Origin: Candidatus Avigastranaerophilus sp.
GTDB taxonomy: Bacteria; Muiribacteriota; Ozemobacteria; Ozemobacterales; Ozemobacteraceae
Assembly (NCBI GenBank): GCA_045599645.1
Contig: JAZRWI010000089.1
Span: forward strand, 33,657 to 97,656
Direction: 5' to 3'
Length of the DNA: 64,000 nt
In this document: one piece after another, positions 1 through 43,664 of the stretch
How the letters are laid out: each line of letters opens with the position of its first letter
Numbering within the stretch: the first letter of the stretch is position 1
Position numbers and translations under genes: made by a program
The notes under the pieces: model-generated
Told to the model about the DNA's origin: nothing
The model's input: only the letters and a program-made list of their open reading frames with translations
The model's database searches: none

Positions 1-2507
1 GTAACATTAACAGCACCTTTTCCTAGCGTTGCGGCAACATCTGTTGCGAATGAAGTAGCTTGATATGCTGTGTCTGAAATAGCTCTAACGACTGCACTAT
101 TGTCGTAAGCTTTACTTGAGATTTTTCCAGCTATTTCCATATAGGCGACACCCATCTTACAGGTGTCTTTTGCCATGCCTGCAATTACGCCTGTAGTGAA
201 GCCCTCGTCATCGGAAAATACTTTATCAATGCTCTTTCTTGTGTCAGAGTAGAATTTATCTGTACCAACATAGTCATAGAATTCATCACCGAATTTTTTC
301 GGGTCGTTTACTGCTTCTATAGCTATTGATGCTCCATCTGCGAAATTTTTAATATTTTCGCCGTAAACTCCATCCTGTATTCTTTGTACAACTTCATCTG
401 TGTTGCCTGTGAACACTGTTGAAGCACTATCTATTGCCAGATTAGCTGCATTTTTGATATTACCCGTAGGTGAACATATTCCGCTGGCAGTTGTGCCACC
501 GAAGCAGAACTGATTTGCAGCGTCAAGGCCTACTAGGGCTAAATTATTTTCTGTTATTGCCCCCATAAAGTTATTTGTTATCATGGATTTGGCCATTGCA
601 TAAGGAATGTTATCACCGGCTTTTGTGTTTGCATAGGCATCTCCTGCTATACCAAGCCAGCCTAAGGTGCTTCCGGCGAATTTTCCGACCTTACCTACAC
701 CAGATATGACTTTACCTGCTATTTTATCTTTTGTGGCAACTTTGATTGTGTCCATATAATCATTGGCCATATTGTTCCACAATTTGTCTTGAAAAGGTTT
801 TATATAATTTTTGTAGCGTTCGTCTCCGAGAGTTATTAGATTTCCTGCTAAGCCGGCATCGTCACCGCTGCCCCATTCCAGGATTTTGTCTGTGATTTCC
901 TGAGGGCGTTCAAGAACAGCGTCTATGAATCTGCCATAAGTTCTATAAAAATCTTCAAATTCTTTTTCGATATTTTTGCCGGCAGCTTTTTTTATTTCCT
1001 CCCCTTCAATCATTGTTTTCAATTTACTACGAGGACTATTGTCAAATAAAAAAGAATTTATTTTTTCGTAGCTGTTTCCTGTTGTTTTTCCTTCTTCCTC
1101 GTCTTCTTCTTTTTTCTTTTTAGGAAGGCTGGCAGTATTGCCAGACGCAGTTTCTCCTGTTGTTCCTGTTGGAAGAGAACTTGCACCTGCTCCTGTTCCA
1201 GCGCTAGCGGTTCCTGCACCGGCAGCACCTGATGCGGTACCTGCTCCTGTGGCAGCACCAGCGGCACTAGCACCCGCAGCGGCAGCACCAGCGGCGGCGG
1301 CTCCTGCTGCAGCACTGGCGGCCCCGGCAGCTCCGGCAGCTGCTCCTGCGGCTCCACCGAAGCTTGAACCGCAAATGTTTTCCATTGGCGGTCTGGAACC
1401 GTATTTCATCATATTGTTAACTGTTTTTAATTGTGATGCACTTTGTTTTGTAGCTTTAAGGCTTTCGCGAAGGGCGTTCAGTTCTTCTTCCTTTTGTACT
1501 TTTTCCTGAGGTGTCTTAGCGTTTCTTACACTTGCTTCAGCTTGTTTTATCTGTGCTTCAAGCCTTGGTATTTCTTTTTCTATATCCCTGAGAGCTTTGT
1601 TCATTTGTGACTGGTAATCGCAATTTGCGATTGGAATGATGCATAGAATAAATAATGCCAATGCTGTAGCAGCTGGAACCATTGGTGTTTTGAACAGTGA
1701 TACTATATATGCTATGGCTCCGATACCGGCTACTATGTAACCGATGTCATAGAAAATTTCTGCCTGTTTGGAGATAAACCAGCAGGAAGCAAAAGCTATG
1801 AGTGAGCCCCATGAAATGCCTAATAGCAACATTCTTGCTGCCTTTGGGTTTACAGGTCTGTTTTTGGCAAAAGAATTCAAACCGGCTAGCAATATGCTTT
1901 TGGGGTCTGCCTGTATTTTCATGCAAAGGAAAAACAGGACTAAGCCTATTATGCTGTTGTATTTATCAAGATTTACGGTCATGAAATTGAACAATACAAA
2001 TGCAATACCGATGCCGGTAACAAAGGAACAGATATTCGATAGCTTTCTACCTTCGAAATCTGGTTTTAATTGAAAAACAAGCTTTTTATCAGTGGTTCCC
2101 ATGAGAATGGAAATAATCAGGCCACCGATGATTGATTTACCCAGTACACCGCCAAGTATAGAGGTTAAATTCCCGTATATACCAGCTTTTGCATAGGTAA
2201 AGAAGCAGAACAGGTTCAGCAGGAAGGGTATGCCTTTTCGACTGTAGTCTTCAACCAGAAGATTGGTAAAAAACCAGCCTAGAGCAAGGACTACGACGGT
2301 GATTATGACTTTCTTAACGAATAAAGCCTTGAGGCCTTTGAATAGATTCTTTAAGATCAGCAGAATTATATCAATGGGACCCATGCCGTCGAAGGGGTTT
2401 CCTGGTATGGCAGAGCCTTTTCCGAAAAGAACAAATTTAAGCTTTTGCATGAAGCCTGCTGGCTGGGTTTGAAGCTGATTCTGATTTGTATTATTCTGGT
2501 TTTCCAT
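1..2507 (-). CDS. Hypothetical large membrane protein, C-terminally truncated by the window edge (>835 aa): N-terminal multi-pass TM region, coiled coil, Ala/Gly-rich low-complexity linker, then a globular region
   Basis: Not in the supplied ORF track because it runs off the window. I checked the minus-strand frame codon by codon from ATG 2507-2505 down to about 1380 and read on to position 3 without meeting a stop. A GGAGA-type RBS lies 4-9 nt upstream. The start is 18 nt after the stop of the upstream gene 2526..3776. Track ORFs 1058..1357(-), 1138..1509(+), 1768..2073(+) and 2263..2472(+) are alternative-frame shadows of it. Confidence 0.75.
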   Translation of the reverse strand, partial: MENQNNTNQNQLQTQPAGFMQKLKFVLFGKGSAIPGNPFDGMGPIDIILLILKNLFKGLKALFVKKVIITVVVLALGWFFTNLLVEDYSRKGIPFLLNLFCFFTYAKAGIYGNLTSILGGVLGKSIIGGLIISILMGTTDKKLVFQLKPDFEGRKLSNICSFVTGIGIAFVLFNFMTVNLDKYNSIIGLVLFFLCMKIQADPKSILLAGLNSFAKNRPVNPKAARMLLLGISWGSLIAFASCWFISKQAEIFYDIGYIVAGIGAIAYIVSLFKTPMVPAATALALFILCIIPIANCDYQSQMNKALRDIEKEIPRLEAQIKQAEASVRNAKTPQEKVQKEEELNALRESLKATKQSASQLKTVNNMMKYGSRPPMENICGSSFGGAAGAAAGAAGAASAAAGAAAAGAAAAGASAAGAATGAGTASGAAGAGTASAGTGAGASSLPTGTTGETASGNTASLPKKKKEEDEEEGKTTGNSYEKINSFLFDNSPRSKLKTMIEGEEIKKAAGKNIEKEFEDFYRTYGRFIDAVLERPQEITDKILEWGSGDDAGLAGNLITLGDERYKNYIKPFQDKLWNNMANDYMDTIKVATKDKIAGKVISGVGKVGKFAGSTLGWLGIAGDAYANTKAGDNIPYAMAKSMITNNFMGAITENNLALVGLDAANQFCFGGTTASGICSPTGNIKNAANLAIDSASTVFTGNTDEVVQRIQDGVYGENIKNFADGASIAIEAVNDPKKFGDEFYDYVGTDKFYSDTRKSIDKVFSDDEGFTTGVIAGMAKDTCKMGVAYMEIAGKISSKAYDNSAVVRAISDTAYQATSFATDVAATLGKGAVNV

Positions 2508-2525: not shown

Positions 2526-3776
2526 TCAGCGTTCCGGAAATTTTTTGCCACAATTGGTGCAGAACAGGCCTTGCATAACGACCTTACTTCCGCAGAAGGG
2601 GCAGAATTTGAAAACAAATCCAGGCTGCGGAGCCACAACTGGCTGATGTGCCGTAACTGGCTCTGGCTGCTGGGTGACAACTGGTTGAGTGACAACGGCA
2701 GGCTGTGCCGGTGCTGCAATGGGTTGAACTACTGATTCAGGCTGCGGTGCTGCAACTGGTTGAACAATAGGCTTCGGTTGAGGTGCTGCAACAGGCTGCG
2801 GTGCAATAGTAGGTTTGGCTTCTGCAACAGGCTGTGATGCAACAGGCTTGTCTTCCTGGGCAGTCTGTGGAACAATGGCTATAGGCACTGTTTCCCAGAA
2901 GCTAAGGTCAATATTATCTACAGTTGAGAATTGTGCAGAACCATCTGCCTCTGTGATTTCAAACAATTTGTCTGTTGTTATGAAATATTTTCTGTAATTG
3001 CCAGTGCCAAGGTCTTTATAACTGATTCTTACATTGCCACCGTCTGGAACCATGTATTTTCTTGTGCTTTCGCCGGGAAGATAGGTATCTTGTATTTCTG
3101 TGGCGGTCAGGAATCCTTTGCTTACAAGACCAGAAACAGCTTTTTGATATCGATTGTCGTCTTCGTATATATTCAGAATGGCGTTATCTGTAAAAAGGTC
3201 TGCGGCAAGAAGCTCTGTTAGAAAATCTTTCTTGAAGGCCTTCAGATTCACCATTGATTCTTCTTTTGTAAGAGGTCTGCCAGCCGTCTTAAAGGCTTTG
3301 CCGATTACAAAAAGACTTATATTGAGAAGAGAAAGTTCGTCATTGGTAAGAGAAAAGGAAACCTTTTCGCTACTGGCCGGGTGCCAGTTTCCAAAGGTAG
3401 AACTGATGACAAATGGCTTGATTATTTCAGGGAGAACAGGTGATGTGAGACTGACCAGTTTTTGCTTGTAATCAATGACTATATATATCCAGAAGCCTTT
3501 ATAATAATTATATATGCAGGGACCGTTTTCGCTGGCTGAAGCGTTATCAAGTAAAATAGTCTTTTCTGGTTCACAGATAACCTTTGCTATTTTTTCGGCT
3601 TTAACAGTGAGTTTACCGTTTTTGTAAAAGCCCAGCGATTCTGTTTTTGATAAATCGTTTTGAAGGTTTTCTCCTTCATACTGCATATAACCAGCGGAAA
3701 GTTCGCTTGGTTGCAGCCCAGAGGCTTTTAAGAAAGCGGCATAATAATCAAATGTAAAAAGGTGTTGAATAATCAC
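2526..3776 (-). CDS. Hypothetical protein with P/Q/V/A-rich repeat linker and C-terminal zinc-ribbon
   Basis: 416-aa ORF with a GTG start at 3776 and an AGGAGAA RBS about 7 nt upstream. The C-terminus carries CPFC-x13-CTNC (zinc ribbon), preceded by about 75 aa of PQPVAAPQP-type repeats. I recognise no motif in the N-terminal 300 aa. It appears to form an operon with 1..2507. Confidence 0.8.
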   Translation of the reverse strand: MIIQHLFTFDYYAAFLKASGLQPSELSAGYMQYEGENLQNDLSKTESLGFYKNGKLTVKAEKIAKVICEPEKTILLDNASASENGPCIYNYYKGFWIYIVIDYKQKLVSLTSPVLPEIIKPFVISSTFGNWHPASSEKVSFSLTNDELSLLNISLFVIGKAFKTAGRPLTKEESMVNLKAFKKDFLTELLAADLFTDNAILNIYEDDNRYQKAVSGLVSKGFLTATEIQDTYLPGESTRKYMVPDGGNVRISYKDLGTGNYRKYFITTDKLFEITEADGSAQFSTVDNIDLSFWETVPIAIVPQTAQEDKPVASQPVAEAKPTIAPQPVAAPQPKPIVQPVAAPQPESVVQPIAAPAQPAVVTQPVVTQQPEPVTAHQPVVAPQPGFVFKFCPFCGSKVVMQGLFCTNCGKKFPER

Positions 3777-3885
3777 AACTGGTTCTCCTATAAAATCACT
3801 CAGAAATTAATATAGCATATTGTTGGAAATTGGACAATAAAAGGGCGCTGCGCTAGGAGGGCGGCCTTTGGCCTAGGAGGGCGTA

Positions 3886-3930
3886 CCGCGGGAGCAGGTT
3901 GCGTAGTCTGTGGGTTCAGCATTGCCAGCC
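3886..3930. repeat. 45-bp direct repeat, copy A (partner at 11074..11118)
   Basis: CCGCGGGAGCAGGTTGCGTAGTCTGTGGGTTCAGCATTGCCAGCC matches 11074..11118 at 43/45 positions in the same orientation. Read on the minus strand it encodes ..NAEPTDYATCSRG.., a remnant of the C-terminus of the 11049..11489 protein. Confidence 0.9.
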
Positions 3931-4077
3931 ATTGTTTAATCTAAAGTTATTGTTTCTGATTTTTCAGATAATATTGAATTAATAAAGGTTGATTAAATAG
4001 AAGCTTCTGCATTAGTTTTTTCTGTTATTTTTTATTGATTGTGTTATTATAAATAAAAAAAACGGTAGAAAATCAAT

Positions 4078-5370
4078 ATGGAAGAAAAAACCTTAAATAG
4101 CGAAAATAGAATCCTTCAGGCTATGGAAGGTAAGCTTTATGTTTTCCCTGAATCTAGAAACTATTTAATTATTATTTCAGTGGTAATAGTTGTTTTTGCA
4201 TTATGTGTCTGGGGGGTAAAAGGAAAAGTTAATGAGTATGTAAAAGGTGTCGGCATTATTACAACAATGACAAACTATACGCCTGTAACAAGCTTTTGCG
4301 ATGGGCTGATTGAATATCTTGATGTAAATGAAGGCGATGAAGTTATATGTGGACAAACTATTGGAAAAGTTTTTTCTATTGATGTCTATATTGAAGTGAT
4401 GAATATAAGAAAAGAGTTAGATATACATAATAAAAGACTTAAATTTTATCAGACCTCTCTTGAAAATATAAAAATTCGGAAAAAAGAAGTTTCTGATGCT
4501 AGCGTACGATATATTAAGGAAAATCTGGCTCGAATTAATAACCAGATAAAATGGTTCAGTGCTTATATAGAAAAATTGGAAACTGTTTCAAAGCGTGGGG
4601 CTGTTCCCTCTAATCTTGTTGCTGATACAAAATTTAAATTTGATTCAATCTTAGAAAATAAAGCTTTGCAGGAATTTGCTTTGATTGAGAATAAGCTGAA
4701 ATTAGAAGAACAATTGGCGAATTTGGATTTTGAATTAGACAAATATCAGGTGGAATTAGAAGAAATAAAAATAAAAGCCGAGGAAGCTTATTCTAAGTAT
4801 GTTAGATCAGGATATATTTTTGCCAGGGATACTGGTAAGGTTGCAGAAATTACAGCACCAAAAGGCGATCAGGTAAAAAATGGTGATACAGTATTATATT
4901 TGATAACTGAAAAAAATGATGATGCGCTGGTAGAAGTAACAGCTTATTTTCCCTTTAAGGATGTAAGAAAAATAGAAAAAGGTATGAAGGTCAGAGTTAT
5001 TCCTTCATATATAAAATTTGAACACGACGGTGCCATTTTGGGAACAGTTGTCTCTATAGATAGAGATGTTGTATCTGACAAAAAATTACAGCGATTGTAT
5101 AAAAGTGAAACTTTGTCACAGCAATTATTTTCACAAAACGATAATTTACCAGTAAGAGTAACTATTTTTCTTGAACAGAACAGTAAGTCTCCTAGCGGTT
5201 TTAATTGGACAACAGGGATTGGACCAGAAATTAAAATAAAGGATAATACATTATTTTCTGCACTGGTTACTGTTAATCAGGTTGCTCCATTTGAGCTTTT
5301 GTTCGGTAAAATTCAAAAATCTGTATTTGGTAAAAATGAGCAAATGACTTTGGAGAAAATTAATGAATAG
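4078..5370 (+). CDS. HlyD-family membrane-fusion / secretion adaptor protein
   Basis: 430 aa. It has an N-terminal TM anchor (LIIISVVIVVFALCVWGV). Lipoyl-like hairpin motifs (GLIEYLDVNEGDEVICGQTIGKV and GKVAEITAPKGDQVKNGDTVL) flank a long coiled coil. It overlaps the next ORF by 8 nt. Confidence 0.85.
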   Translation: MEEKTLNSENRILQAMEGKLYVFPESRNYLIIISVVIVVFALCVWGVKGKVNEYVKGVGIITTMTNYTPVTSFCDGLIEYLDVNEGDEVICGQTIGKVFSIDVYIEVMNIRKELDIHNKRLKFYQTSLENIKIRKKEVSDASVRYIKENLARINNQIKWFSAYIEKLETVSKRGAVPSNLVADTKFKFDSILENKALQEFALIENKLKLEEQLANLDFELDKYQVELEEIKIKAEEAYSKYVRSGYIFARDTGKVAEITAPKGDQVKNGDTVLYLITEKNDDALVEVTAYFPFKDVRKIEKGMKVRVIPSYIKFEHDGAILGTVVSIDRDVVSDKKLQRLYKSETLSQQLFSQNDNLPVRVTIFLEQNSKSPSGFNWTTGIGPEIKIKDNTLFSALVTVNQVAPFELLFGKIQKSVFGKNEQMTLEKINE

Positions 5371-6583
5371 GTCTTTGGTTTCATTTATTTGTATTCTTCT
5401 ATTAGGAGTTTTTATTTATTTTTGCGGAAATGATGTTTGCGACATTGTTACAAAAAATATTTATTTGATAAGAGATGTAGTTGATAACGGTTTGGTGGAT
5501 AAGAAGCACAGAATAGAAGCTGTTAAGAATAATGAAGTTATTAAATTGGCTTTATTTGGAGATTTAAGTAAATTTAAGAATTATGGGATAGATATTAAGA
5601 AAGCTTATGAATTTGTTGCAGAGGAAATAAATGCTTCCAGGATATTAAATAAGAAATTGCAGATAGTTTCTTTTGATAAAGAAGGCGATGTTTATAGATA
5701 TCAGGAAGTGGCAAAATTGATTGCTGAAGATCCAACTGTTTTTGGTGTAATTGGACCTTTTGAGACTAAGTATTTAATCGGTTTTTCTGAGATTTTTGCT
5801 AGTGCCGGGTTGTTCGAAATTATTCCAATATCAATTCGTGATAGATTTTTTGAAAATAAACCGAAGTCTTTATTTATAACTTCTTCTTCATGTGATTCGG
5901 TTGCTGATGCGTGGATTGAATTCTTCTCTAAGAATGGTTTTAATAATGCTTTTTTGTTGGATTTATTTGAACACCATAATGGCAGATGTGGCGTCAGTAA
6001 AAAAATATTAGAAAAAATGTTTAAATCAAACTTAAACTTTGCTTATAGATATGAAATAGATAAGATTGATGTAGAATGGTTAAGAGAAGATTTGAAAGAG
6101 TCAAAGAGCTATTTTGAATCAAATAATATTTTTATTGTATCAAATAAGCATTTTGATCAAACTTATTCTTTTGAACTGTTAGATATGGTCTTAGATGTAT
6201 TTAATGATGGTAACGTCTTTTATGATGATTTAATTTCATTAGATGAGATTAAGGATATAAAGTTTAATCATGACCGGTTCTTTGCTTCCTGTTTTTATGA
6301 AGATACTGAAGTTTTCAGGGTATTGATAAATAAACTAAGTAAACAGCCATGGTATAAAAATGATTTTATTACTCTTCGCATTTATGAAGATTTATGGCTT
6401 CTAGCAGATGCCATTCAGAAATCAGGAAGTTATGAATGCGATAAAATCTCTGAATATATGCTTAATAATACTTTAAATACTCCATTAGGTAATTTTTCTT
6501 TTTCAAAAGATGGCTATGTTGATAAGTATCCTGCTTGTATTATGAGTATTTCTGATGTTGAAAAGATATGGAGCAATAAATAG
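5363..6583 (+). CDS. Membrane-anchored type-1 periplasmic-binding-protein-like protein (LivK/ANF-receptor fold)
   Basis: 406 aa with an N-terminal hydrophobic signal/anchor. The pattern IKLALFGDLS.. / EEINASRILNKKLQIVSFDKEGD / VFGVIGPFETKY is typical of PBP1 branched-chain-type binding proteins. It is translationally coupled inside the exporter operon. Confidence 0.65.
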   Translation: MNRSLVSFICILLLGVFIYFCGNDVCDIVTKNIYLIRDVVDNGLVDKKHRIEAVKNNEVIKLALFGDLSKFKNYGIDIKKAYEFVAEEINASRILNKKLQIVSFDKEGDVYRYQEVAKLIAEDPTVFGVIGPFETKYLIGFSEIFASAGLFEIIPISIRDRFFENKPKSLFITSSSCDSVADAWIEFFSKNGFNNAFLLDLFEHHNGRCGVSKKILEKMFKSNLNFAYRYEIDKIDVEWLREDLKESKSYFESNNIFIVSNKHFDQTYSFELLDMVLDVFNDGNVFYDDLISLDEIKDIKFNHDRFFASCFYEDTEVFRVLINKLSKQPWYKNDFITLRIYEDLWLLADAIQKSGSYECDKISEYMLNNTLNTPLGNFSFSKDGYVDKYPACIMSISDVEKIWSNK

Positions 6584-6600
6584 GAAGGGCATTTATATTT

Positions 6601-8778
6601 ATGAGACTTTTTAATAGATATTGTAAATGTCCGATAAGGTTTCAGCGCGGTAAAAACGAAAGCGCTTTAGTTGCCCTGCAGATGATTCTGGCTTACTATA
6701 AAGCTTTCGTTCCCATAGAAACATTGAGAGATAATTGTTGTGTTGAAAGAGATGGAATAAATGATGAAGGCCTTATAAAGGTTGGTAGTTTTTATGGTTT
6801 AAACGGTAATGCTTACTTAAATATAAGTTCTGATGATTTATTAAATTACCCGATTCCGTCTGTAATTAAGTTTAATAATGGTGATTATGTGACCTTTACG
6901 GGAATGAAAGGCAATAAATATTGTTTTAACCATCCTGAAAAAGGCGAGTTGTCCTATGGGAAGAGAGAGTTTGAAGAAAATTTTTCAGGAAACCTTTATA
7001 CTTTCACGCAGAATAAAAATTTTAAAACCTTTGGTCATGACAGATCGGTCGCAAATGCTATTTTTCACTTCTCAATGCAGGATTCTGGCGGATTAGTAAT
7101 TTTATTTTTAATTTGTTTGTTATTAGTTCCTCCAACTGTTATAACACCGAATTTAAATAAAATATTTATAGATAATATTTTAAATGATGAAAAGGTATAT
7201 TGGGGTATTCCAATGATATCTATTGTCGTTGTTCTGTTTTTTTTAACTTTGATATTATCTTTCTTTCATAATATTGAACTGACAAAAATGAATCTAAGGT
7301 TGTCTTCGAAAAGTTCTATTGCATATATAATGAAGATGTTTCAGGTTCCTGGCGTTTTTTTTGCTTCCAGGTCTCTGGGGGATTTATCTGAAAGACTTTC
7401 TGAAAATAATCAGGTTGCAAAATTTATTACAGATACTCTTGTTCCTAGATTTATAGAAATAGTAATAATGTTTATTTTTGCTGGTTTGCTATTCTATTTT
7501 GATTCTTTTCTTGCAGCAATTACAGTCCTTGCTGTTGTAGCCAATATTAGTTTGTCGATTGTATATGGTTACACATCAAAATATCTTGCTATAGGTGACC
7601 GGGCGTTCAAAACCTCCGCATCGTCTTCTACAATTGTTGGTATTTCCATGATAGAGTCGATGAAATCAACTTCAACCTGTGCCGATTTTGTAAGGCTATT
7701 TATAAGCAATATTAACGAAATTACAATGGCAAAGGATAAATATACGATTATTTCTTCTTACTATACTTGTATTAGAAGGGCAATTGTATTTTTTACCAAG
7801 AATTGTATTACTCTGTTTGCTGTGCTGAAATTACTTAATGGTGATATTTCCGGTGGTGTGTTCATTGTATTTCAGGTTTTACTAAATGGTATTTTCCAAC
7901 CCGTAGAGGGGATTAACATCCTGATAATAAATATAGCACAGGCAGGAAACTCTATTGGCCGAATTGAAGAAATTTTAGATTATGAAGTTCCTGCGCAAAA
8001 AGAGAATCCTGTTTGTCTAAACGAGCGATTAACCGGAAAAATTGAATTTAAGAATATAACCTTTGGTTATAATAAACTTCAGGAGCCTTTAATAAAGAAC
8101 TTTAATTTAACAATTAATCCGGGCGAAAGAATAGCTATTATTGGTTCGTCTGGTTCTGGCAAGTCAACGATTATTAAACTTCTATCCGGAATATTGAAGC
8201 CATGGTCTGGCGAGGTATGCTTTGATGACCGGTCTATAACAGATTATTCAAATGAATATTTAAGGTATTCATTTGCTTCTGTTGATCAGGATATAGTTTT
8301 ATTTGAAAAAGGCACAGTCAAGGATAATATTGCCTTATATGATTCCGCATTGTCTTTGGAAGAAATTGAAAAAGCTGCAAAAGACGCAGTTATTCACAAA
8401 GTTATTGTCAGCCGGCCGGGTGGATATCTGTCGGAAATGGGCTGTAATGATGGTGGATTTAGCGGTGGTGAAAAGCAGAGACTGGAAATTGCAAGAGCCT
8501 TAGCGGTAAATCCTTCTGTTTTATTGCTTGATGAGGCTACAAGTGCCTTAGATACTTTAACAGAAGCTGAAGTAGATAATAATATAAGAAAAAGGGGAAT
8601 TACAACGGTAATTGTTGCTCACAGACTATCTACAATCAGAGACGCTGATAAAATTATTGTTTTGCATAAAGGAGAAATTAAAGAGGTTGGTAAGCACGAA
8701 GAATTATTGGCATTAAGGGGAATCTATTATTCTTTAGTAAGCTCAGGCAAGGAAGGCGGCGAAGAAAGCTATGATTGA
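6601..8778 (+). CDS. ABC exporter (TMD+NBD) with N-terminal C39-like domain that looks catalytically degenerate
   Basis: 725 aa. The NBD carries Walker A GSSGSGKST, signature FSGGEKQR and Walker B LLLDEAT. A six-TM exporter core precedes it. In the N-terminal 130 aa (C39 fold), the positions I align to the Cys/His/Asp triad read NES-A, DYVTF and NHP. Confidence 0.85.
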   Translation: MRLFNRYCKCPIRFQRGKNESALVALQMILAYYKAFVPIETLRDNCCVERDGINDEGLIKVGSFYGLNGNAYLNISSDDLLNYPIPSVIKFNNGDYVTFTGMKGNKYCFNHPEKGELSYGKREFEENFSGNLYTFTQNKNFKTFGHDRSVANAIFHFSMQDSGGLVILFLICLLLVPPTVITPNLNKIFIDNILNDEKVYWGIPMISIVVVLFFLTLILSFFHNIELTKMNLRLSSKSSIAYIMKMFQVPGVFFASRSLGDLSERLSENNQVAKFITDTLVPRFIEIVIMFIFAGLLFYFDSFLAAITVLAVVANISLSIVYGYTSKYLAIGDRAFKTSASSSTIVGISMIESMKSTSTCADFVRLFISNINEITMAKDKYTIISSYYTCIRRAIVFFTKNCITLFAVLKLLNGDISGGVFIVFQVLLNGIFQPVEGINILIINIAQAGNSIGRIEEILDYEVPAQKENPVCLNERLTGKIEFKNITFGYNKLQEPLIKNFNLTINPGERIAIIGSSGSGKSTIIKLLSGILKPWSGEVCFDDRSITDYSNEYLRYSFASVDQDIVLFEKGTVKDNIALYDSALSLEEIEKAAKDAVIHKVIVSRPGGYLSEMGCNDGGFSGGEKQRLEIARALAVNPSVLLLDEATSALDTLTEAEVDNNIRKRGITTVIVAHRLSTIRDADKIIVLHKGEIKEVGKHEELLALRGIYYSLVSSGKEGGEESYD

Positions 8779-10999
8779 TAATAAAGATAAGGTTCTTAGC
8801 CAGATGAGCGAAATCCTTGAAAAGCATAAAGAATCTGAGAACAAGAGAATAAAATCTATTGAAAATTCTTTTGATAAAATTTTTGGCAATTCAGAAAAAC
8901 GTGATTTTGTTCCTTTGCCTAATAACCCTTTGCAGGCAGTAGTTTCTTATGTGGCTAAGTGCTATGGTTTACCTGATTTTAAACTTATCGATGATTCGGA
9001 TAAGTGCATAGCAGATTGTGACAGTAAAATTCAACGTATTATCGAAATTCTGAAAATTTCATGCGGCCGCTCTGGAATATTGGCTTGTTCAGTCTCTCTT
9101 GCAGATGATTGGTATAGCAGTAGTTTTGATCCGTTGATTGTGATAGGAAAAGATGATTCTTCTGTTTTTGCAGTAGTAAATCAAGGTGACAAGAGTATTG
9201 CCATTAATGGAGCAACAGGTGATAGAATTATTGTAGACAAGGAAACATACAAAAATTTCTATAGCTTTGCCTGGTATTTTGCTCGTTCATTACCTAATAA
9301 ATCTTTGACAATCTGGGAATTTCTGAGGTTTGTTTTTTATCCTCAAAGGCATACTATTATTAAATTTTTGGTAGTGTCTTTCCTGGTAAATACATTTTTG
9401 AGTTTTATTACACCATTAATAAATTATATTGTTTTTAGTGAAATAATACCAAATTCTAATAAAAGCTTAATTTTGTATTTGATAATAGCTACTGTGATTT
9501 TTTCTTTGGCGCAAAGCTGGCTGACTTATGTGCAATATGTTATTTTCGGTGTTCTTGCGCATTGGGGCGAAAAAGAAGTAGCTATTTCCATTTGGGACAG
9601 ATTAACCAGATTGCCTGTTTCTTTTTTTAAGAATATTTCTGCTGGTGATTTAGCCAGTAAATTTTCGGCTATTGGTAATATGTTTTTGGCTGTTCAAAGG
9701 GTTGTAATACACATAGGTGGACTGTTTCTGTTTCTGGGAGCTGCTTATTTTGCACCGATACCTTCTTTATGGGCTCTGTTTCTTGTGACCATAGTTGCAA
9801 TCATTCAATTTTATTCTTATAAATATTCTAAAAAATATATGTCCATTGAAACTGCTATTGGCAATAGAACTCAAGGCGTGTTCGTACAGTTTTTGAAGGG
9901 AATTACAAAATTACGGATTGCTGGTGCAGAAGCTGCTGTTACAGACATTTGGTTAAATGGATTTACAGAACAGAAATTAGTATATAAAAAATCATCTATG
10001 ATTAGTAAAATACCATTGGTTCTTCAGAATACATTGCCACAGATAATGTTTGTTGTTATTTCTTCTGCTATATTAATGCAGTTATATAGCTCGAATAAAT
10101 TGCCAATATCTGATTTTGCTGCGTTTATCTCTGCAATAACTATTTTTTCAAATAGCACTATAAGGATAGGACTTGGTTTAATGGCTTGTTTTTCTGATTA
10201 TGCTTCAATAAGTCAATTCCTTCCAATATTAGAGGCTGTGCCCGAAAAATATGATTACTCTTCAACTGTAACGCAGAATCCGGAAGGAAAGATTGAGGTT
10301 AATCATCTTAAATTCTCTTATGACAATAATAGAGAAGTTCTTAGTGACGTTTCGTTTTGTGCAAATCCAGGGGAACTGATAGCTATAACCGGCTCTTCTG
10401 GTTCTGGAAAATCAACCTTATTCAGGCTTATGCTAGGGTTAGAAACTCCAACAAGTGGTTCAATCCTATATGATGATGTTGATATGCTTCATTTAAACCT
10501 TGAATATTTTCGTAGTAAAATAGGGGTTGTGTTGCAGAATGCTGCTCTAATGCCAGATACAATACTAAGAAACATCATTGGTTATTCTTTGGATTTGTCT
10601 GAAGAAGATGCCTGGAAGGTGGCAGAACAGACAGGCTGTGATGAGGATATCCGAAGTTTTCCAAAACAGATGTATACTAAGATAACTACTGGAAGCGTAA
10701 TTTCTGGAGGGCAGAGGCAGAGAATTGCCTTAGCCAGGGCATTGGTTAAAAAACCAAAGATTATTTTCCTTGATGAGGCTACAAGTGCTTTGGATAATAA
10801 GACTCAGGCTATTGTTACAGAATCTCTCAGGCAGTCTGGAGCTACCAGAATCGTAATCGCTCATAGATTGAGCACTATTATTGATGCTGATAAAATCTTT
10901 TATTTAGACAAAGGAAAAATAGTTGAACAAGGCACTTATAAGGAATTGATGAACCTGAACGGGCACTTTGCTGCTATGGCACGTCGTCAGATTGCTTAA
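8771..10999 (+). CDS. Second ABC exporter (TMD+NBD) with about 190-aa N-terminal accessory domain
   Basis: 742 aa. The NBD carries GSSGSGKST, ISGGQRQR and IFLDEAT. The N-terminal extension (LQAVVSYVAKCYGLP ... FDPLIVIGKDDSSVFAVV ... IIVDKETYKNFY) resembles a second non-catalytic C39-like fold. It overlaps the upstream ABC gene by 8 nt. Confidence 0.85.
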   Translation: MIDNKDKVLSQMSEILEKHKESENKRIKSIENSFDKIFGNSEKRDFVPLPNNPLQAVVSYVAKCYGLPDFKLIDDSDKCIADCDSKIQRIIEILKISCGRSGILACSVSLADDWYSSSFDPLIVIGKDDSSVFAVVNQGDKSIAINGATGDRIIVDKETYKNFYSFAWYFARSLPNKSLTIWEFLRFVFYPQRHTIIKFLVVSFLVNTFLSFITPLINYIVFSEIIPNSNKSLILYLIIATVIFSLAQSWLTYVQYVIFGVLAHWGEKEVAISIWDRLTRLPVSFFKNISAGDLASKFSAIGNMFLAVQRVVIHIGGLFLFLGAAYFAPIPSLWALFLVTIVAIIQFYSYKYSKKYMSIETAIGNRTQGVFVQFLKGITKLRIAGAEAAVTDIWLNGFTEQKLVYKKSSMISKIPLVLQNTLPQIMFVVISSAILMQLYSSNKLPISDFAAFISAITIFSNSTIRIGLGLMACFSDYASISQFLPILEAVPEKYDYSSTVTQNPEGKIEVNHLKFSYDNNREVLSDVSFCANPGELIAITGSSGSGKSTLFRLMLGLETPTSGSILYDDVDMLHLNLEYFRSKIGVVLQNAALMPDTILRNIIGYSLDLSEEDAWKVAEQTGCDEDIRSFPKQMYTKITTGSVISGGQRQRIALARALVKKPKIIFLDEATSALDNKTQAIVTESLRQSGATRIVIAHRLSTIIDADKIFYLDKGKIVEQGTYKELMNLNGHFAAMARRQIA

Positions 11000-11048
11000 A
11001 CATTTTTTGTAACCATTGAATGATTTACTGATTTCTTTTCAAACAGTC

Positions 11049-11489
11049 TCATTTGCTCTTCACTTGCCATTTCCCGCGGGACCAGGTTGCGTAGTCTGTG
11101 GGTTCAGCATTGCCAACCCTGTGCTGAATGATGCCGCGGCCAATGATATAGGTTCCGCAGGTGCAGACCTTGGTGCCCTTGCCTGCAACATACGGAAGGG
11201 CATCCTTGGCGTCTTTTAATTCGTTTATTGGTTTATGACCGCATTTACATGCTGGCAGCGGCTCCTGGCCGATGAAAAGCTGTCTTTCAAGCCAGGCAAT
11301 ACCATGAACTACGAACAGCAAAAGAGCAGGTCCGATTAAAATACCGGCATAGCCCCAGTATTCCCCGTATCTGGAAAAAAACACATCACCGAAATAGCCT
11401 GCGATTATAAGCAGGGCCAGGGCAACAGTTTCCATTTTAAGGCCACCCTTTTTGTTGTTTGTAATTCTTGGTTTCATTGGTTTATACAT
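11049..11489 (-). CDS. Small membrane protein with C-terminal Cys cluster (hypothetical)
   Basis: 146-aa ORF. The more likely start is ATG 11435, preceded by an AAGGGTGG RBS. It has two TM helices and then a CKC...CTC cluster. Its 3' end contains copy B of the 45-bp repeat. The overlapping track ORF 11016..11219(+) is a shadow. Confidence 0.55.
   Translation of the reverse strand: MYKPMKPRITNNKKGGLKMETVALALLIIAGYFGDVFFSRYGEYWGYAGILIGPALLLFVVHGIAWLERQLFIGQEPLPACKCGHKPINELKDAKDALPYVAGKGTKVCTCGTYIIGRGIIQHRVGNAEPTDYATWSRGKWQVKSK
11074..11118. repeat. 45-bp direct repeat, copy B (partner at 3886..3930)
   Basis: Matches copy A at 43/45 positions. It lies inside the 3' coding end of 11049..11489(-). 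Confidence 0.9.
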
Positions 11490-11490
11490 A

Positions 11491-11952
11491 CTTGGTATCG
11501 AAGTGTAGCTAGTAAAGCTTTAAGCTCCAAGCTTTAAGCTTTAAGCTCCAAGCTTTAAGCTCCAAGCTATAAGCTATAAGCTTTAAGCTCCAAGCTATAA
11601 GCTATAAGCTATAAGCTCCAAGCTATAAGCTATAAGCTTTAAGCTATAAGCTCCAAGCTATAAGCTATAAGCTATAAGCTCCAAGCTATAAGCTATAAGC
11701 TTTAAGCTCCAAGCTCCAAGCTATAAGCTATAAGCTTTAAGCTCCAAGCTATAAGCTATAAGCTCCAAGCTATAAGCTATAAGCTTTAAGCTATAAGCTC
11801 CAAGCTTCAAGCTTTAGGCTTCCGGCTTCCAGCGGCCTGCTTTCTCGGCCAAGAGCTAAGAGCCAGCAGCCAAAAGCTTATTGCAACAAACCTTATACCC
11901 ACCTGGTATCGAAGCACTGTCCTGCTTCAAGCTTATAGCTTCCAGCTTCCTA
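11491..11952. repeat. Composite element: conserved 30-bp left end, about 45 tandem heptamers (AAGCTNN), about 100-bp core, short second array
   Basis: 11491-11520 is identical to 18126-18155. The array at 11514-11838 uses the units AAGCTTT, AAGCTCC and AAGCTAT. The core at 11832-11930 (..GGCCTGCTTTCTCGGCCAAGAGCTAAGAGCC..AAACCTTATACCCACCTGGTATCGAAGCACTGTCCTGCTTC) is homologous to the cores at 18306-18409 and 18614-18708. Confidence 0.95.
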
Positions 11953-12384
11953 CTACTTCAGGCTGTCAAGGTGTTGCTTGATTGCGTCGCGCATTGGTTT
12001 GAAGAATGCTGTAGTATCAAGCTTGGGTTCGATTCTTTTCCAGACAGAGTTAATCGGGTAAACAACACTGCCGGTTACTTCGTCTACGAGAGCAGGTTCA
12101 CTGCCGAACTGATCTTCAATGATCTGCCAGCCAAAGCCGAATTCAGCTTTGAGAAGCTCACCGAAGAGGCTGCCAAAGCAGTTGGCCATTTCCTCATTGC
12201 CAGCCTTAGTAGCAGATTTATCTTCTGCCCAGGCCTTGAAAACCTTATCAAGATTTTCAAAATTAACAGGACCTTTTACCATGCCGGAATAGGAAGCGTA
12301 AATTTCGCGGCCCTTAGTGGTATTGGCTGCTATTTTTGTAAGTTCCTTCGGGCTTAAACCCAAAATTCTTGGTGTCATATTCAT
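11953..12384 (-). CDS. Hypothetical cytoplasmic protein (possibly DUF3806-like)
   Basis: 143-aa ORF with balanced composition. The opposite-strand ORF 11881..12357(+) has an unnatural Cys/Phe-rich composition and is taken as a shadow. The family assignment is from memory only. Confidence 0.6.
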   Translation of the reverse strand: MNMTPRILGLSPKELTKIAANTTKGREIYASYSGMVKGPVNFENLDKVFKAWAEDKSATKAGNEEMANCFGSLFGELLKAEFGFGWQIIEDQFGSEPALVDEVTGSVVYPINSVWKRIEPKLDTTAFFKPMRDAIKQHLDSLK

Positions 12385-18125: not shown

Positions 18126-18846
18126 CTTGGTATCGAAGTGTAGCTAGTAAAGCTTTAAGCTTTAAGCTATAGGCTCCAAGCCCCAAGCCCCAAGCCCCAA
18201 GCCCCAAGCCCCAAGCTATAAGCTATAGGCCCCAAGCCCCAAGCTATAAGCTATAGGCCCCAAGCCCCAAGCTATAAGCTATAGGCTCCAAGCTTCTAGC
18301 TTCAGGCTTCCGACGGCCTGCTTTCTCGGCCAAGAGCTAAAAGCTAAGAGCCAAAAGCCTATTGAACCAAACCTTATACCCGCTTGGTATCGAAGCACTG
18401 TCCTGCTTCTAGCTTCAAGCTTCAAGCTTTAAGCTATAGGCTCCAAGCTCCAAGCCCCAAGCTCCAAGCTCCAAGCTCCAAGCCCCAAGCCCCAAGCTAT
18501 AAGCTATAGGCCCCAAGCTCCAAGCCCCAAGCTATAAGCTATAGGCTCCAAGCCCCAAGCCCCAAGCTATAAGCTATAAGCTATAGGCTCCAAGCTTCTA
18601 GCTTCTAGCTTCAGGCTTCCGACGGCCTGCTTTCTCGGCCAAGAGCTAAAAGCCAAAAGCCTATTGAACCAAACCTTATACCCGCTTGGTATCGAAGCAC
18701 TGTCCTGCTTCTAGCTTCAAGCTTCAAGCTTTAAGCTATAGGCTCCAAGCCCCAAGCCCCAAGCCCCAAGCTCCAAGCTCCAAGCTCCAAGCTATAGGCT
18801 CCAAGCTTCTAGCTTCTAGCTTCTAGCTTCTAGCTTCAAGCTTATC
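18126..18846. repeat. Composite element: three heptamer arrays separated by two copies of an about 100-bp core
   Basis: The left end at 18126-18155 equals 11491-11520. The arrays lie at about 18149-18310, 18406-18612 and 18705-18846 and use the units CTTTAAG, CTATAAG, CTATAGG, CTCCAAG, CCCCAAG, CTTCTAG and CTTCAAG. The cores lie at 18306-18409 and 18614-18708 and differ by a 7-nt indel. Confidence 0.95.
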
Positions 18847-43298: not shown

Positions 43299-43348
43299 TT
43301 CATAATTCATAATTCATAATTCATAATTCATAATGCATAATGCATAAT
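43296..43348. repeat. Heptamer array TAATTCA/TAATGCA beginning at the stop codon of adhesin 2
   Basis: (TAATTCA)x5 followed by (TAATGCA)x2, starting with the TAA stop at 43296-43298. Confidence 0.9.
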
Positions 43349-43376
43349 TGATTGTTGATTGATTGGGTTTGGTGTT

Positions 43377-43585
43377 GCTTCGACCAAGTTTGTGCCAATG
43401 CCTGGATTGAGAATTGAAAATTGAGAATTGAGAATTTTTTGTTTTTTTGCTGCTTCGACCAAGTTTGTGCCAATGCCTGGATTGAGAATTGAAAATTGAG
43501 AATTGAGAATTTTTTGTTTTTCTGCTGCTTCGACCAAGTTTGTGCCAATGCCTGGATTGGGTATTGAGAATTGAGAATTTTTGGG
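43377..43585. repeat. 75-bp tandem repeat x3, each containing nested GAGAATT heptamers
   Basis: GCTTCGACCAAGTTTGTGCCAATGCCTGGATTGAGAATTGAAAATTGAGAATTGAGAATTTTTTG.. starts at 43377, 43452 and 43527. Track ORFs 43321..43686(-) and 43328..43624(-) are repeat artefacts. Confidence 0.9.
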
Positions 43586-43664
43586 TTTAGTGCTGTTGAC
43601 GCGCCCTGCGAGGCCTTCCTCCAATTGGGGGAAGGTGGCACAGCGAAGCTGTGACGGATGAGGG

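What the first reader, a model, noticed from the sequence alone, without database searches (positions are those of the whole stretch)
4078..10999. T1SS/PCAT-like exporter with two ABC subunits, both with non-catalytic C39-like N-domains, and no visible substrate or outer-membrane factor
**What resembles a known system**
- The gene set (HlyD adaptor, ABC with a C39-type N-domain, second ABC with a different N-domain) resembles the three-gene NHLM/Nif11-type bacteriocin export systems as I recall them (TIGR03794/03796/03797).

**What does not fit**
- The residues I align to the C39 catalytic Cys/His/Asp read Ser/Asp/His-like (NESA, DYVTF, NHP). The domain is probably a non-cleaving C39-like domain, as in HlyB-type transporters.
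- I find no small double-glycine precursor ORF, no RTX-like substrate and no TolC-like gene in or beside the cassette.

The cargo is therefore unknown, and a heterodimeric double-CLD exporter would be unusual.
Basis: partly seen in the sequence, partly recalled or inferred. Interest (0 to 1): 0.65.

Follow-up and report, generated by a model that had tools for sequence, protein, structure and literature searches.

The report
Peptide exporter with dead peptidase domain
This is an intact, movable four-gene operon for a bacteriocin-type (NHLP/Nif11-type) ABC export machine that has lost its leader-cutting active site, always travels with a membrane-tethered amino-acid-binding-type protein, and has no cargo gene nearby, so it is an undescribed variant of a known exporter with unknown cargo.

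Summary
They are HlyD adaptor (4078-5370), a LivJ-type periplasmic-binding-protein (PBP)-like tethered protein (5363-6583, missed in this finding), ABC1 (6601-8778) and ABC2 (8771-10999).

- **Family.** Best models are TIGR03794/03796/03797. Only HlyD passes its cutoff.
- **ABC1 active site.** The C39 triad reads Ser21/Asp95/His111 instead of Cys/His/Asp. All 12 close homologues keep this. It sits in a clade (support 0.97) whose other members read QSKD, QSRD and QGRD.
- **ABC2 N-domain.** Its model (pLDDT 89) matches only HlyB, LahT and PCAT1 C39/C39-like domains. The fold is shared by the 21 aligned ABC2 proteins.
- **Selection.** All four genes are under purifying selection (dN/dS 0.10-0.30).
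- **Mobility.** The 7-kb block sits in at least two genomic contexts and is absent from a relative.
- **PBP partner.** All five peptidase-dead lineages carry it and none shows a precursor. About 6% of intact-peptidase loci carry it.
- **Positive control.** Loci with an intact peptidase show GG-leader or Nif11-type precursors.

Most likely this is a non-cleaving exporter of unlinked cargo. It is a new variant of a known kind.

The parts
4007..4077 (+). Conserved upstream leader of the cassette (start of the block shared with other contigs); presumed promoter and RBS region
   Evidence: The blastn block window 4007-10999 = L001 7408-14399 (88%) starts here; flanks are unrelated. No convincing sigma-70 consensus was found.
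4078..5370 (+). HlyD-type membrane fusion protein, 430 aa, with an N-terminal TM helix
   Evidence: TIGR03794 at 196.9 bits, above the 156.2 cutoff; Pfam HlyD_3. dN/dS 0.14-0.17.
5363..6583 (+). Type I (LivJ/LivK-like) periplasmic-binding-protein-like protein, 406 aa, with an N-terminal hydrophobic anchor or lipoprotein-like signal; overlaps hlyD by 8 nt
   Evidence: Pfam Peripla_BP_6 at 33.4 bits (cutoff 31.7). Profile A5 against PDB: 4mlc E=1.9e-43, also LivJ/LivK. Foldseek top hits are LivJ-type PBPs, but the model is low-confidence. dN/dS 0.26-0.30. Partner PBPs are present in all 5 peptidase-dead lineages.
6601..8778 (+). ABC1 half-transporter, 725 aa: C39-like domain + type IV exporter TMD + canonical NBD
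   Evidence: Best model TIGR03796, 637 bits, below the 853 cutoff; Pfam C39, ABC_membrane and ABC_tran. Walker A/B, Q-loop, signature and H-loop are intact. dN/dS 0.10.
6601..7035 (+). Degenerate C39 (C39-like) domain of ABC1. Gln15 at 6643-6645; Ser21 (AGC) at 6661-6663 replaces Cys; Asp95 (GAT) at 6883-6885 replaces His; His111 (CAT) at 6931-6933 replaces Asp
   Evidence: Alignments to canonical relatives; codons; conserved in 12 of 12 cluster members; dN/dS 0.10-0.13.
8771..10999 (+). ABC2 half-transporter, 742 aa: C39-like-fold N-domain + TMD + canonical NBD; overlaps ABC1 by 8 nt
   Evidence: Best model TIGR03797, 570 bits, below the 709 cutoff. NBD motifs intact. dN/dS 0.11-0.13.
8903..9334 (+). 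ABC2 N-terminal domain (residues 45-188) with a C39-like fold and no triad (Ala56/Ser131/Asn146 at the equivalent positions)
   Evidence: AF2 model pLDDT 88.9, pTM 0.81. The 16 best Foldseek PDB hits are all HlyB C39-like, LahT150 or PCAT1 peptidase domains, TMq 0.50-0.59. hhalign A3 vs A4 gives the same register but is weak (E 0.0018, probability 15%).
3886..3930 (.). Left copy of the 45-nt direct repeat flanking the cassette
   Evidence: 96% identical to 11074-11118. Absent at the same site in the syntenic contig L007, so it is not a constant feature of the insertion.
11074..11118 (.). Right copy of the 45-nt direct repeat, inside the 3' end of the 146-aa gene 11049-11489 (-)
   Evidence: conserved in L007 and L008.

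Best explanation
The locus is a complete, selected and horizontally movable operon. It encodes a four-component envelope export machine derived from the NHLP/Nif11-type bacteriocin exporters (TIGR03794/03796/03797).

Proposed workings:
- ABC1 and ABC2 form a heterodimeric type IV ABC exporter with two consensus ATP sites.
- HlyD spans the periplasm.
- A membrane-tethered LivJ-like PBP acts on the periplasmic face.
- The only peptidase domain of the system (in ABC1) has lost its Cys and His. Both half-transporters therefore carry non-catalytic C39-like domains.
- These domains are retained as cargo-docking or gating modules, as in HlyB, and not as a leader peptidase.
- The machine therefore most likely moves a cargo that it does not cleave and that is encoded elsewhere.

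Shown: the gene set, domain folds, loss of the triad, purifying selection, mobility, constant PBP partnership, and absence of linked precursors.

Inferred: heterodimer formation, direction of transport, non-cleavage, the role of the PBP, and supply of an outer-membrane channel in trans.
For: Gene set and operon:
- The operon is tightly coupled.

Active-site loss:
- The triad reads S21/D95/H111, while relatives at 31-35% identity read C/H/D.
- The substitutions are fixed in 12 of 12 members of the 90% cluster.
- In a search of 1.84 billion representative proteins, 125 of 151 matched C39 domains read QCHD.
- The window protein sits in a clade (support 0.97) with P0169 QSKD, P0200 QSRD and P0182 QGRD. 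That clade lies inside a 15-tip group with 10 non-canonical members, 8 of them independent once the three window-cluster sequences count as one.
- The variable residue at the His position argues against catalysis.

Domains and selection:
- The ABC2 N-domain has a C39-like fold.
- dN/dS is 0.10-0.13 for both N-domains, the same as for the transporter cores.

Context:
- The same 7-kb block occurs with unrelated flanks.
- It is absent from relative L095.
- All five peptidase-dead lineages (window, L093, L098, L099, L101) carry HlyD (TIGR03794 above cutoff; for the window, for the other four), ABC1, ABC2 and Peripla_BP_6. None has an adjacent OEP gene.
- GG-leader and Nif11 scans find precursors beside canonical loci (L100, L009, L014, L023, L125, L177, L109). 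They find none in the window or in any peptidase-dead locus.
- Short contigs from a metatranscriptome lie on all four genes (weak).
Against: - No cargo has been identified, so non-cleaving export is an inference.
- Ser, Asp and His are all present in the pocket, and a Ser-based activity is not formally excluded.
- The whole genome could not be searched for unlinked NHLP/Nif11 peptides or for TolC.
- The ABC1 and ABC2 scores are below the NCBIfam equivalog cutoffs.
- In L098 the cassette sits in an operon with an NRPS-like A-T-TE enzyme and a B12 radical-SAM enzyme. The cargo need not be the same, or even a ribosomal peptide, across the clade.
- No exporter is known to me to use a type I PBP, so its role is open.
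Confidence: 0.6

Rival explanations
1. Immunity or resistance module instead of a producer's exporter. The pump would expel mature (leaderless) Nif11-type or similar bacteriocins made by neighbours from the envelope, as LanFEG does. The tethered PBP-like protein would capture them outside the membrane, as LanI-type lipoproteins do. A peptidase would then be unnecessary.
For: - No precursor is linked in any of the five peptidase-dead lineages, while canonical PBP-bearing loci carry several Nif11-type precursors.
- The cassette is accessory and found in different contexts in gut/rumen-type metagenomes.
- The PBPs are membrane-tethered and evolve fast: 15-28% identity between lineages, and the highest dN/dS of the four genes.
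Against: - The cytoplasmic C39-like domains stay under strong constraint. That is easier to explain if cargo is recruited from the cytoplasm.
- The analogy to LanFEG/LanI rests on my own knowledge and there is no sequence relation.
- In L098 the cassette is co-operonic with biosynthetic enzymes.
Confidence: 0.15
2. Ordinary bacteriocin/RiPP exporter whose peptidase still works with Ser21 as nucleophile (with His111/Asp95). It would cleave GG-leader precursors encoded elsewhere in the genome.
For: - Ser, His and Asp are all present, Gln15 (oxyanion hole) is kept, and the domain is constrained.
- NHLP/Nif11 precursors are often unlinked from their transporters (PMC2887384).
- A secreted LysM-C39 peptidase with an intact triad lies next to the cassette in L001 and L006.
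Against: - His and Asp have swapped positions, which puts His away from the nucleophile in the papain-like fold (inference from PCAT1, LahT and ComA structures).
- Sister lineages have Lys, Arg or Gln at the His position and Gly at the Cys position (P0182). No catalytic base is conserved across the clade.
- No precursor was found in 64 kb or in any related locus.
- The LysM-C39 gene lies outside the shared block and has no homologue in the window.
Confidence: 0.12
3. HlyB-like type 1 secretion of a large unfolded protein with a C-terminal signal (RTX-type or adhesin-type), using a TolC encoded elsewhere.
For: - Non-catalytic C39-like domains are the hallmark of RTX-type T1SS ABC proteins (PMC8277102).
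- HlyB is the top structural match of the ABC2 N-domain.
- Giant surface proteins lie in the window and next to L093.
Against: - The giant YadA-like proteins have Sec signal peptides and autotransporter anchors. The GLUG/Big_5 proteins have lipoprotein signals.
- No RTX repeats were found.
- TIGR01846 scores 325 against a cutoff of 726.
- The system is phylogenetically inside the NHLM family, with GG-leader-using sisters.
Confidence: 0.08
4. PBP-dependent importer built on an exporter fold. This would resemble the heterodimeric type IV importers YbtPQ and IrtAB, but with the LivJ-like protein delivering a ligand.
For: - A type I PBP normally serves importers or sensors.
- It is translationally coupled inside the operon and is constant in the clade.
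Against: - A TIGR03794 HlyD adaptor is present in every lineage. Canonical PBP-bearing relatives sit beside Nif11 precursors and OEP genes. Both point to export.
- No PBP-dependent type IV importer is known to me.
Confidence: 0.04
5. Decaying remnant of a bacteriocin locus that lost its precursor and its active site and is on the way to being lost.
For: - The active site is lost and no cargo gene is present.
- GC content (0.31) is lower than in the flanks.
Against: - All four ORFs are intact in every full-length copy recovered, over more than 10% nucleotide divergence, with dN/dS 0.10-0.30.
- The same architecture persists in lineages with 33-45% ABC1 identity.
Confidence: 0.01

Closest known systems
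NHLP/Nif11-type bacteriocin export system (TIGR03794 HlyD, TIGR03796 ABC-peptidase, TIGR03797 ABC; Haft et al. 2010, PMC2887384)
   Same: - Same three core genes in one operon, and each is the best NCBIfam match.
- HlyD passes its cutoff.
- Phylogenetically nested among canonical members that sit next to GG-leader or Nif11 precursors.
   Different: - ABC1 lacks the catalytic Cys and His.
- ABC1 and ABC2 score below their equivalog cutoffs.
- A fourth gene (a LivJ-like PBP) is integral to the operon.
- No precursor is linked.
HlyB-type T1SS ABC transporters with a C39-like domain (E. coli HlyB/HlyD/TolC; PDB 7sgr, 3zua; PMC8277102)
   Same: - A non-catalytic C39-like N-domain on a type IV ABC exporter working with a HlyD adaptor.
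- The outer-membrane factor is not encoded in the operon.
- Best structural match of the ABC2 N-domain.
   Different: - HlyB is a homodimer and keeps His and Asp, with Cys replaced by Tyr.
- It has an adjacent RTX substrate with a C-terminal signal.
- Here there are two different half-transporters, Ser/Asp/His in place of the triad, a PBP partner, and no RTX protein.
- TIGR01846 is far below its cutoff.
PCATs: PCAT1, LahT, ComA (peptidase-containing ABC transporters; PDB 4ry2, 6v9z, 6mpz)
   Same: Same domain order (C39 - TMD - NBD). Pfam C39 hit in ABC1. Both N-domains share the fold.
   Different: PCATs are homodimers with an active Cys-His-Asp triad that cleaves after Gly-Gly. They work without a PBP.
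PBP-bearing canonical NHLM loci found here (L002-L005, L109, L111, L125, L177)
   Same: HlyD + ABC1 + ABC2 + Peripla_BP_6 gene set.
   Different: - Their ABC1 has an intact QCHD site.
- Nif11-type precursors lie beside L125, L177 and L109 (weak hit), a marginal hit beside L111, and none was detected in L002.
- RiPP enzymes and OEP genes lie beside L002-L005.
- Gene order differs: the PBP gene comes first or last.
LivJ/LivK (HAAT family) type I substrate-binding proteins
   Same: The fold and family of the fourth gene product.
   Different: - No LivHMGF-type importer genes are present.
- The protein is tethered by an N-terminal hydrophobic segment and embedded in an export operon.
- NCBIfam LivJ scores 31 bits against a cutoff of 477.

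Membership tests
NHLP/Nif11 bacteriocin export system (TIGR03794/03796/03797) | HlyD-type adaptor matching TIGR03794 above its cutoff | tested here: met
   196.9 bits against a cutoff of 156.2. The adaptors of the four sister lineages also pass.
NHLP/Nif11 bacteriocin export system (TIGR03794/03796/03797) | ABC-peptidase subunit matching the TIGR03796 equivalog above its cutoff | tested here: not met
   It is the best model, but scores 637.4 bits against a cutoff of 853.3.
NHLP/Nif11 bacteriocin export system (TIGR03794/03796/03797) | Second ABC subunit matching the TIGR03797 equivalog above its cutoff | tested here: not met
   It is the best model, but scores 570.3 bits against a cutoff of 709.4.
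NHLP/Nif11 bacteriocin export system (TIGR03794/03796/03797) | Active C39 leader peptidase (Gln, Cys, His, Asp) in ABC1 | tested here: not met
   The site reads Gln15/Ser21/Asp95/His111. 125 of 151 matched C39 domains among the top homologues read QCHD.
NHLP/Nif11 bacteriocin export system (TIGR03794/03796/03797) | NHLP (TIGR03793) or Nif11-type (TIGR03798) precursors in the genome | tested here: inconclusive
   None in the 64-kb window or in related loci, using a regex and a leader HMM that did find precursors at canonical loci. The rest of the genome could not be searched.
HlyB-type (C39-like domain) type 1 secretion system | Non-catalytic C39-like N-domain on the ABC protein | tested here: met
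   ABC1: triad lost. ABC2: C39-like fold with HlyB as top hit.
HlyB-type (C39-like domain) type 1 secretion system | Match to TIGR01846 (type_I_sec_HlyB) above its cutoff, and a single homodimeric ABC gene | tested here: not met
   324.9 and 261.3 bits against a cutoff of 725.6. There are two distinct ABC genes.
HlyB-type (C39-like domain) type 1 secretion system | Linked RTX-type or other substrate with a C-terminal signal | tested here: not met
   No RTX protein in the window. The giant proteins carry Sec or lipoprotein signals.
HlyB-type (C39-like domain) type 1 secretion system | TolC-like outer-membrane factor available | not testable with these tools
   No OEP gene in the window or beside any peptidase-dead locus.
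PCAT (peptidase-containing ABC transporter) | C39 domain - TMD - NBD architecture | tested here: met
   Pfam PF03412, PF00664 and PF00005 in ABC1.
PCAT (peptidase-containing ABC transporter) | Catalytic cysteine that cleaves after Gly-Gly | tested here: not met
   Ser21 (codon AGC) stands at the Cys position. Activity was not assayed.
Type I periplasmic binding protein (LivJ/HAAT, Pfam Peripla_BP_6) | Match to PF13458 above the gathering score, and homology to solved LivJ-type proteins | tested here: met
   33.4 bits against a cutoff of 31.7. Profile A5 against PDB: 4mlc E=1.9e-43, also LivJ and LivK.
Type I periplasmic binding protein (LivJ/HAAT, Pfam Peripla_BP_6) | Works with a LivHMGF-type ABC importer | tested here: not met
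   No importer permease genes in the cassette or its copies.

The most novel reading that the evidence does not exclude
The peptidase-dead, PBP-bearing cassettes are a distinct four-component machine in which a tethered LivJ-like binding protein is a working subunit of a type IV ABC exporter. It would either receive the cargo in the periplasm or gate export on an external ligand. The two C39-like domains would have been re-used to recruit leaderless or non-ribosomal cargo. This would be the first binding-protein-dependent ABC exporter, and a route by which bacteriocin exporters are converted to other uses such as immunity or small-molecule export.
Probability: 0.2. Interest if true: 0.8.

Novelty: new variant of a known kind. 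Interest (0 to 1): 0.55.

Why it matters
NHLP/Nif11-type exporters are used as markers for RiPP and bacteriocin clusters, and are assumed to cut the leader as they export.

This work shows a recurrent, selected subgroup with three properties:
- the cutter is dead;
- no precursor is linked;
- a binding protein of the amino-acid-importer type is always present.

Genome-mining pipelines would mis-call such cassettes as orphan bacteriocin exporters.

The work also shows by fold that the "peptidase-less" second ABC subunit aligned here from 21 loci carries a relic C39-like domain. Canonical systems would therefore have one live and one dead domain, which is relevant to how heterodimeric PCAT-like transporters recruit cargo.

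If the binding protein proves to be a functional subunit, it would change the accepted rule that substrate-binding proteins belong to importers.

Tried and rejected
- **Giant YadA-like ORFs as T1SS cargo (18988-33375, 33576-43298).** Rejected. They have Sec signal peptides, YadA head and stalk repeats, and a tail after the anchor.
- **84-aa ORF upstream of the L093 cassette as precursor.** Rejected. It is a fragment of a GLUG-repeat protein.
- **LysM-C39 secreted peptidase (L001/L006) as a trans-acting leader peptidase of the system.** Not supported. It lies outside the shared block and has no homologue in the window.
- **45-nt direct repeats as att sites of the cassette.** Weakened. The left copy is missing in the syntenic contig L007, and there is no integrase.
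- **PBP as a general feature of the family.** Rejected. Only about 6% of canonical loci have it.
- **Promoter and terminator scan.** Uninformative, with fewer hits than in shuffles.
- **AF2 model of the PBP.** Low confidence (pLDDT 58), so the fold assignment rests on profile matches.
- **First, stricter GG-leader regex.** It missed the positive controls and was replaced.
- **The genome search and the fetch from genomes.** Both were closed, so no genome-wide search for NHLP/Nif11 peptides, TolC or taxonomy was possible.
- **Literature search.** No paper was found that describes a PBP in NHLM-type exporters or a peptidase-dead TIGR03796 clade. The held library is incomplete.

Full report
**What is there**

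Four ORFs on the + strand fill 4078-10999:

| Gene | Coordinates | Length |
|---|---|---|
| HlyD | 4078-5370 | 430 aa |
| PBP-like | 5363-6583 | 406 aa |
| ABC1 | 6601-8778 | 725 aa |
| ABC2 | 8771-10999 | 742 aa |

Successive genes overlap by 8 nt, are 17 nt apart, and overlap by 8 nt, so this is one tightly coupled operon. GC content is about 0.31, against 0.40-0.45 in the flanks.

- Gene 1 matches TIGR03794 (NHLP-system HlyD) at 196.9 bits, above the 156.2 cutoff.
- Gene 3 matches TIGR03796 best, at 637 bits, below the 853 cutoff. It has Pfam Peptidase_C39 (E=3e-18), ABC_membrane and ABC_tran.
- Gene 4 matches TIGR03797 best, at 570 bits, below the 709 cutoff.

It matches Pfam Peripla_BP_6 at 33.4 bits (cutoff 31.7). 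A profile of it and its relatives hits solved LivJ/LivK-type binding proteins (4mlc E=1.9e-43; LivJ, LivK). The AlphaFold model of this protein was poor (pLDDT 58). Its Foldseek hits are therefore only supportive.

Both ABC proteins keep canonical Walker A, Q-loop, signature, Walker B-Glu and H-loop motifs.

**The peptidase site of ABC1**

ABC1 was aligned with relatives at 31-35% identity that read Q...ECGAA...NHFVV...NDP. ABC1 reads Q15...NES21A...GD95YVTF...NH111P.
- The Cys position is Ser (AGC).
- The His position is Asp (GAT).
- The Asp position is His (CAT).
- Each codon is one base away from the canonical one.
- All 12 members of the 90%-identity cluster keep these residues.

I ran an exhaustive HMMER search of 1.84 billion representative proteins. 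Among the 151 C39 domains matched in the top 150 homologues plus seeds, 125 read QCHD.

On a tree of these proteins:
- The window cluster groups (support 0.97) with P0169 (44% identity, QSKD), P0200 (QSRD) and P0182 (QGRD).
- That clade sits inside a 15-tip group with 10 non-canonical members (8 independent once the three window-cluster sequences count as one), next to canonical sisters.

The nucleophile was therefore lost long ago in this lineage. The former His position then drifted (K, R, D). That is what a non-catalytic domain would show, and not a re-invented serine protease.

The domain is still constrained. dN/dS is 0.10-0.13, the same as for the transporter core.

**The N-domain of ABC2**

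Pfam sees nothing in ABC2 before the membrane domain.
- I aligned residues 45-188 with 20 homologous ABC2 N-domains from other loci, 19 of them at 16-27% identity (A3).
- The AlphaFold model is confident (pLDDT 88.9, pTM 0.81).
- Its 16 best PDB matches are all C39 or C39-like domains: HlyB (7sgr, 8dck), LahT150 (6mpz) and PCAT1. TMq is 0.50-0.59 and probability about 1.
- A profile-profile comparison with the ABC1 C39 domains gives the same register but is weak (E=0.0018, probability 15%). It places Ala56, Ser131 and Asn146 at the triad positions.

However, the relic domain in ABC2 is shared by all 21 aligned TIGR03797-type proteins. Only the loss in ABC1 is special here.

**Mobility and selection**

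- The block 4007-10999 is 88-89% identical to blocks in contigs L001 and L006. Both flanks there are unrelated. The similarity ends at the ABC2 stop in L001 and about 40 nt after it in L006.
- L007 and L008 share the window's flanks.
- A relative with an acetate kinase in the same 90%-identity cluster (L095) has the neighbouring genes but lacks the cassette.
- All four genes are intact in every full-length copy, with dN/dS 0.10-0.30.
- The 45-nt direct repeat at 3886-3930 and 11074-11118 is real. Its left copy is absent in the syntenic L007, so I do not treat it as an att site.
- Short contigs from one metatranscriptome lie on all four genes at 99-100% identity. This is weak evidence of expression, since DNA carry-over is possible.

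**Cargo and outer-membrane factor**

I annotated most larger ORFs of the window and listed every intergenic small ORF.
- There is no OEP/TolC gene and no RTX protein.
- The two giant YadA-type proteins have Sec signal peptides and autotransporter features.
- A loose GG-leader regex, and an HMM built from three Nif11-type leaders, found clear precursors next to canonical relatives. Examples are L100 "...LTDKELKGIVGG|", L009, L014 (two), L023 (three), L125 (about six, "...ELSDEDLENVAGG|"), L177 (two) and L109.
- The same scans found nothing in the window or in L001, L006, L007, L093, L098, L099 or L101.

The absence of a linked substrate is thus confirmed with a positive control.

**The PBP partner**

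Contexts could be fetched for five independent peptidase-dead lineages: the window cluster, L093/L094 (QSKD), L098 (QSRD), L099 (QGRD) and L101 (QSKD).
- All five encode HlyD (TIGR03794 above cutoff; for the window, for the other four), ABC1, ABC2 and a Peripla_BP_6 protein with an N-terminal hydrophobic anchor.
- None has an adjacent OEP gene.
- Among canonical QCHD loci, 5 of 29 in the first batch had such a PBP. These 5 are one lineage (L002-L005) plus one weak hit (L052).
- In the metagenome batch, 7 of 76 had one. That is about five lineages.

Roughly 6% of canonical lineages therefore carry the PBP, against 5 of 5 peptidase-dead lineages.

Some of the canonical PBP-bearing loci sit beside Nif11-type precursors or RiPP enzymes. 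Precursors lie beside L125, L177 and L109 (L111 marginal); LanM-like, YcaO/TfuA and OEP genes lie beside L002. The PBP is thus an accessory of some true bacteriocin exporters that became fixed in the peptidase-dead clade.

The PBPs are very divergent (15-28% identity). No NCBIfam model covers them.

In L098 the cassette is the end of an operon that begins with an NRPS-like A-T-TE enzyme and a B12 radical-SAM enzyme.

**Interpretation**

The best-supported reading is as follows.
- This is an NHLM-derived, heterodimeric, HlyD-coupled ABC exporter.
- Its two C39-like domains recruit or gate cargo without cutting it, as the HlyB C39-like domain does (PMC8277102).
- The cargo is unlinked.
- A tethered PBP works on the periplasmic side.

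The anatomy, the loss of the site, the selection, the mobility and the PBP association are shown. Heterodimer formation, direction of transport, non-cleavage and the role of the PBP are inferred.

The rivals are listed with their tests. They are:
- an immunity pump with a capturing lipoprotein;
- a still-active Ser-type peptidase with unlinked precursors;
- RTX-like secretion;
- a PBP-dependent importer on an exporter fold.

A decaying remnant is excluded by the selection data.

**Comparison and novelty**

The system works like, and descends from, the NHLP/Nif11 export system (PMC2887384). It fails three of that system's defining tests: two equivalog cutoffs and the catalytic triad. It also has a fourth subunit.

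It resembles HlyB-type T1SS only in having C39-like domains.

I found no description of a peptidase-dead TIGR03796 clade, or of a PBP subunit in these exporters, in the held literature. Earlier notes of this scan on the same stretch raise the PBP and the repeats. They also suggest a rumen or gut Riflebacterium as host, which I could not check.

I rate it a new variant of a known kind, of moderate interest. Its value lies in the testable link between loss of the peptidase and the binding-protein partner.

Noticed in passing
window 3886-3930 and 11074-11118: A 45-nt direct repeat (96% identical) brackets the cassette. The right copy lies in the 3' end of the 146-aa gene 11049-11489 (-). The left copy is missing at the same place in the syntenic contig L007.
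   Followed up: partly
window 11491-11830; also about 18126-18846 and about 43300-43600: Long arrays of AAGCTNN heptamers (variants TT, CC, AT) lie in intergenic DNA. Related repeat pieces occur in contigs L001 and L007, so this is a dispersed repeat family of the lineage.
   Followed up: partly
window 18988-33375 and 33576-43298: Two giant (4795 and 3240 aa) YadA-head/stalk proteins with Sec-type signal peptides. A coiled-coil tail follows the presumed anchor. There is no Pfam YadA_anchor hit at E<=0.001.
   Followed up: partly
L001 6363-7343 and L006 6363-7343: A secreted LysM + Peptidase_C39_2 protein with an intact Gln/Cys/His/Asp site lies 120 nt upstream of the cassette in one of its two genomic contexts. 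It is outside the shared block and has no homologue in the window.
   Followed up: partly
L098 170-11956: In a GC-rich relative (ABC1 reads QSRD) the HlyD-ABC1-ABC2-PBP genes follow an NRPS-like A-T-TE enzyme and a B12-binding radical-SAM enzyme, with gaps of 30 nt or less. This looks like one operon and hints at a non-ribosomal or heavily modified cargo.
   Followed up: partly
L125 15435-20484; L177 7710-8587: Canonical (QCHD) PBP-bearing NHLM loci carry families of Nif11-type precursors with '...ELSDEDLENVAGG|' leaders and hydrophobic cores: about six in L125 and two in L177.
   Followed up: partly
proteins P0170-P0179 and others: Many of the best ABC1 homologues are 1300-1800 aa fusions of ABC1 and ABC2 in one chain. 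This supports the idea that the two half-transporters work as a heterodimer.
   Followed up: no
L095 (relative) versus window 11049-50400: A related contig has the same backbone: the 146-aa gene, DUF3806, acetate kinase, methyltransferase, glycosyltransferase, FecR, and the DnaJ/TPR/CSD protein. It lacks the exporter cassette, the PIN toxin-antitoxin pair, the AAA_14 gene, the DUF4869 two-gene module and both giant adhesins. The window region is therefore a patchwork of insertions.
   Followed up: partly
window 2526-3776 (-) and 3-2507 (-): Two large genes upstream have no Pfam match. One is a 416-aa protein with a Pro/Gln-rich repeat region and a C-terminal zinc ribbon. The other is a multi-TM protein of more than 835 aa. 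Both are present in L007 and absent from L001 and L006.
   Followed up: no
window 3500-12000, run X2: A public metatranscriptome holds short contigs at 99-100% identity on all four cassette genes. Depth on the heptamer-repeat region 11452-11735 is much higher.
   Followed up: partly
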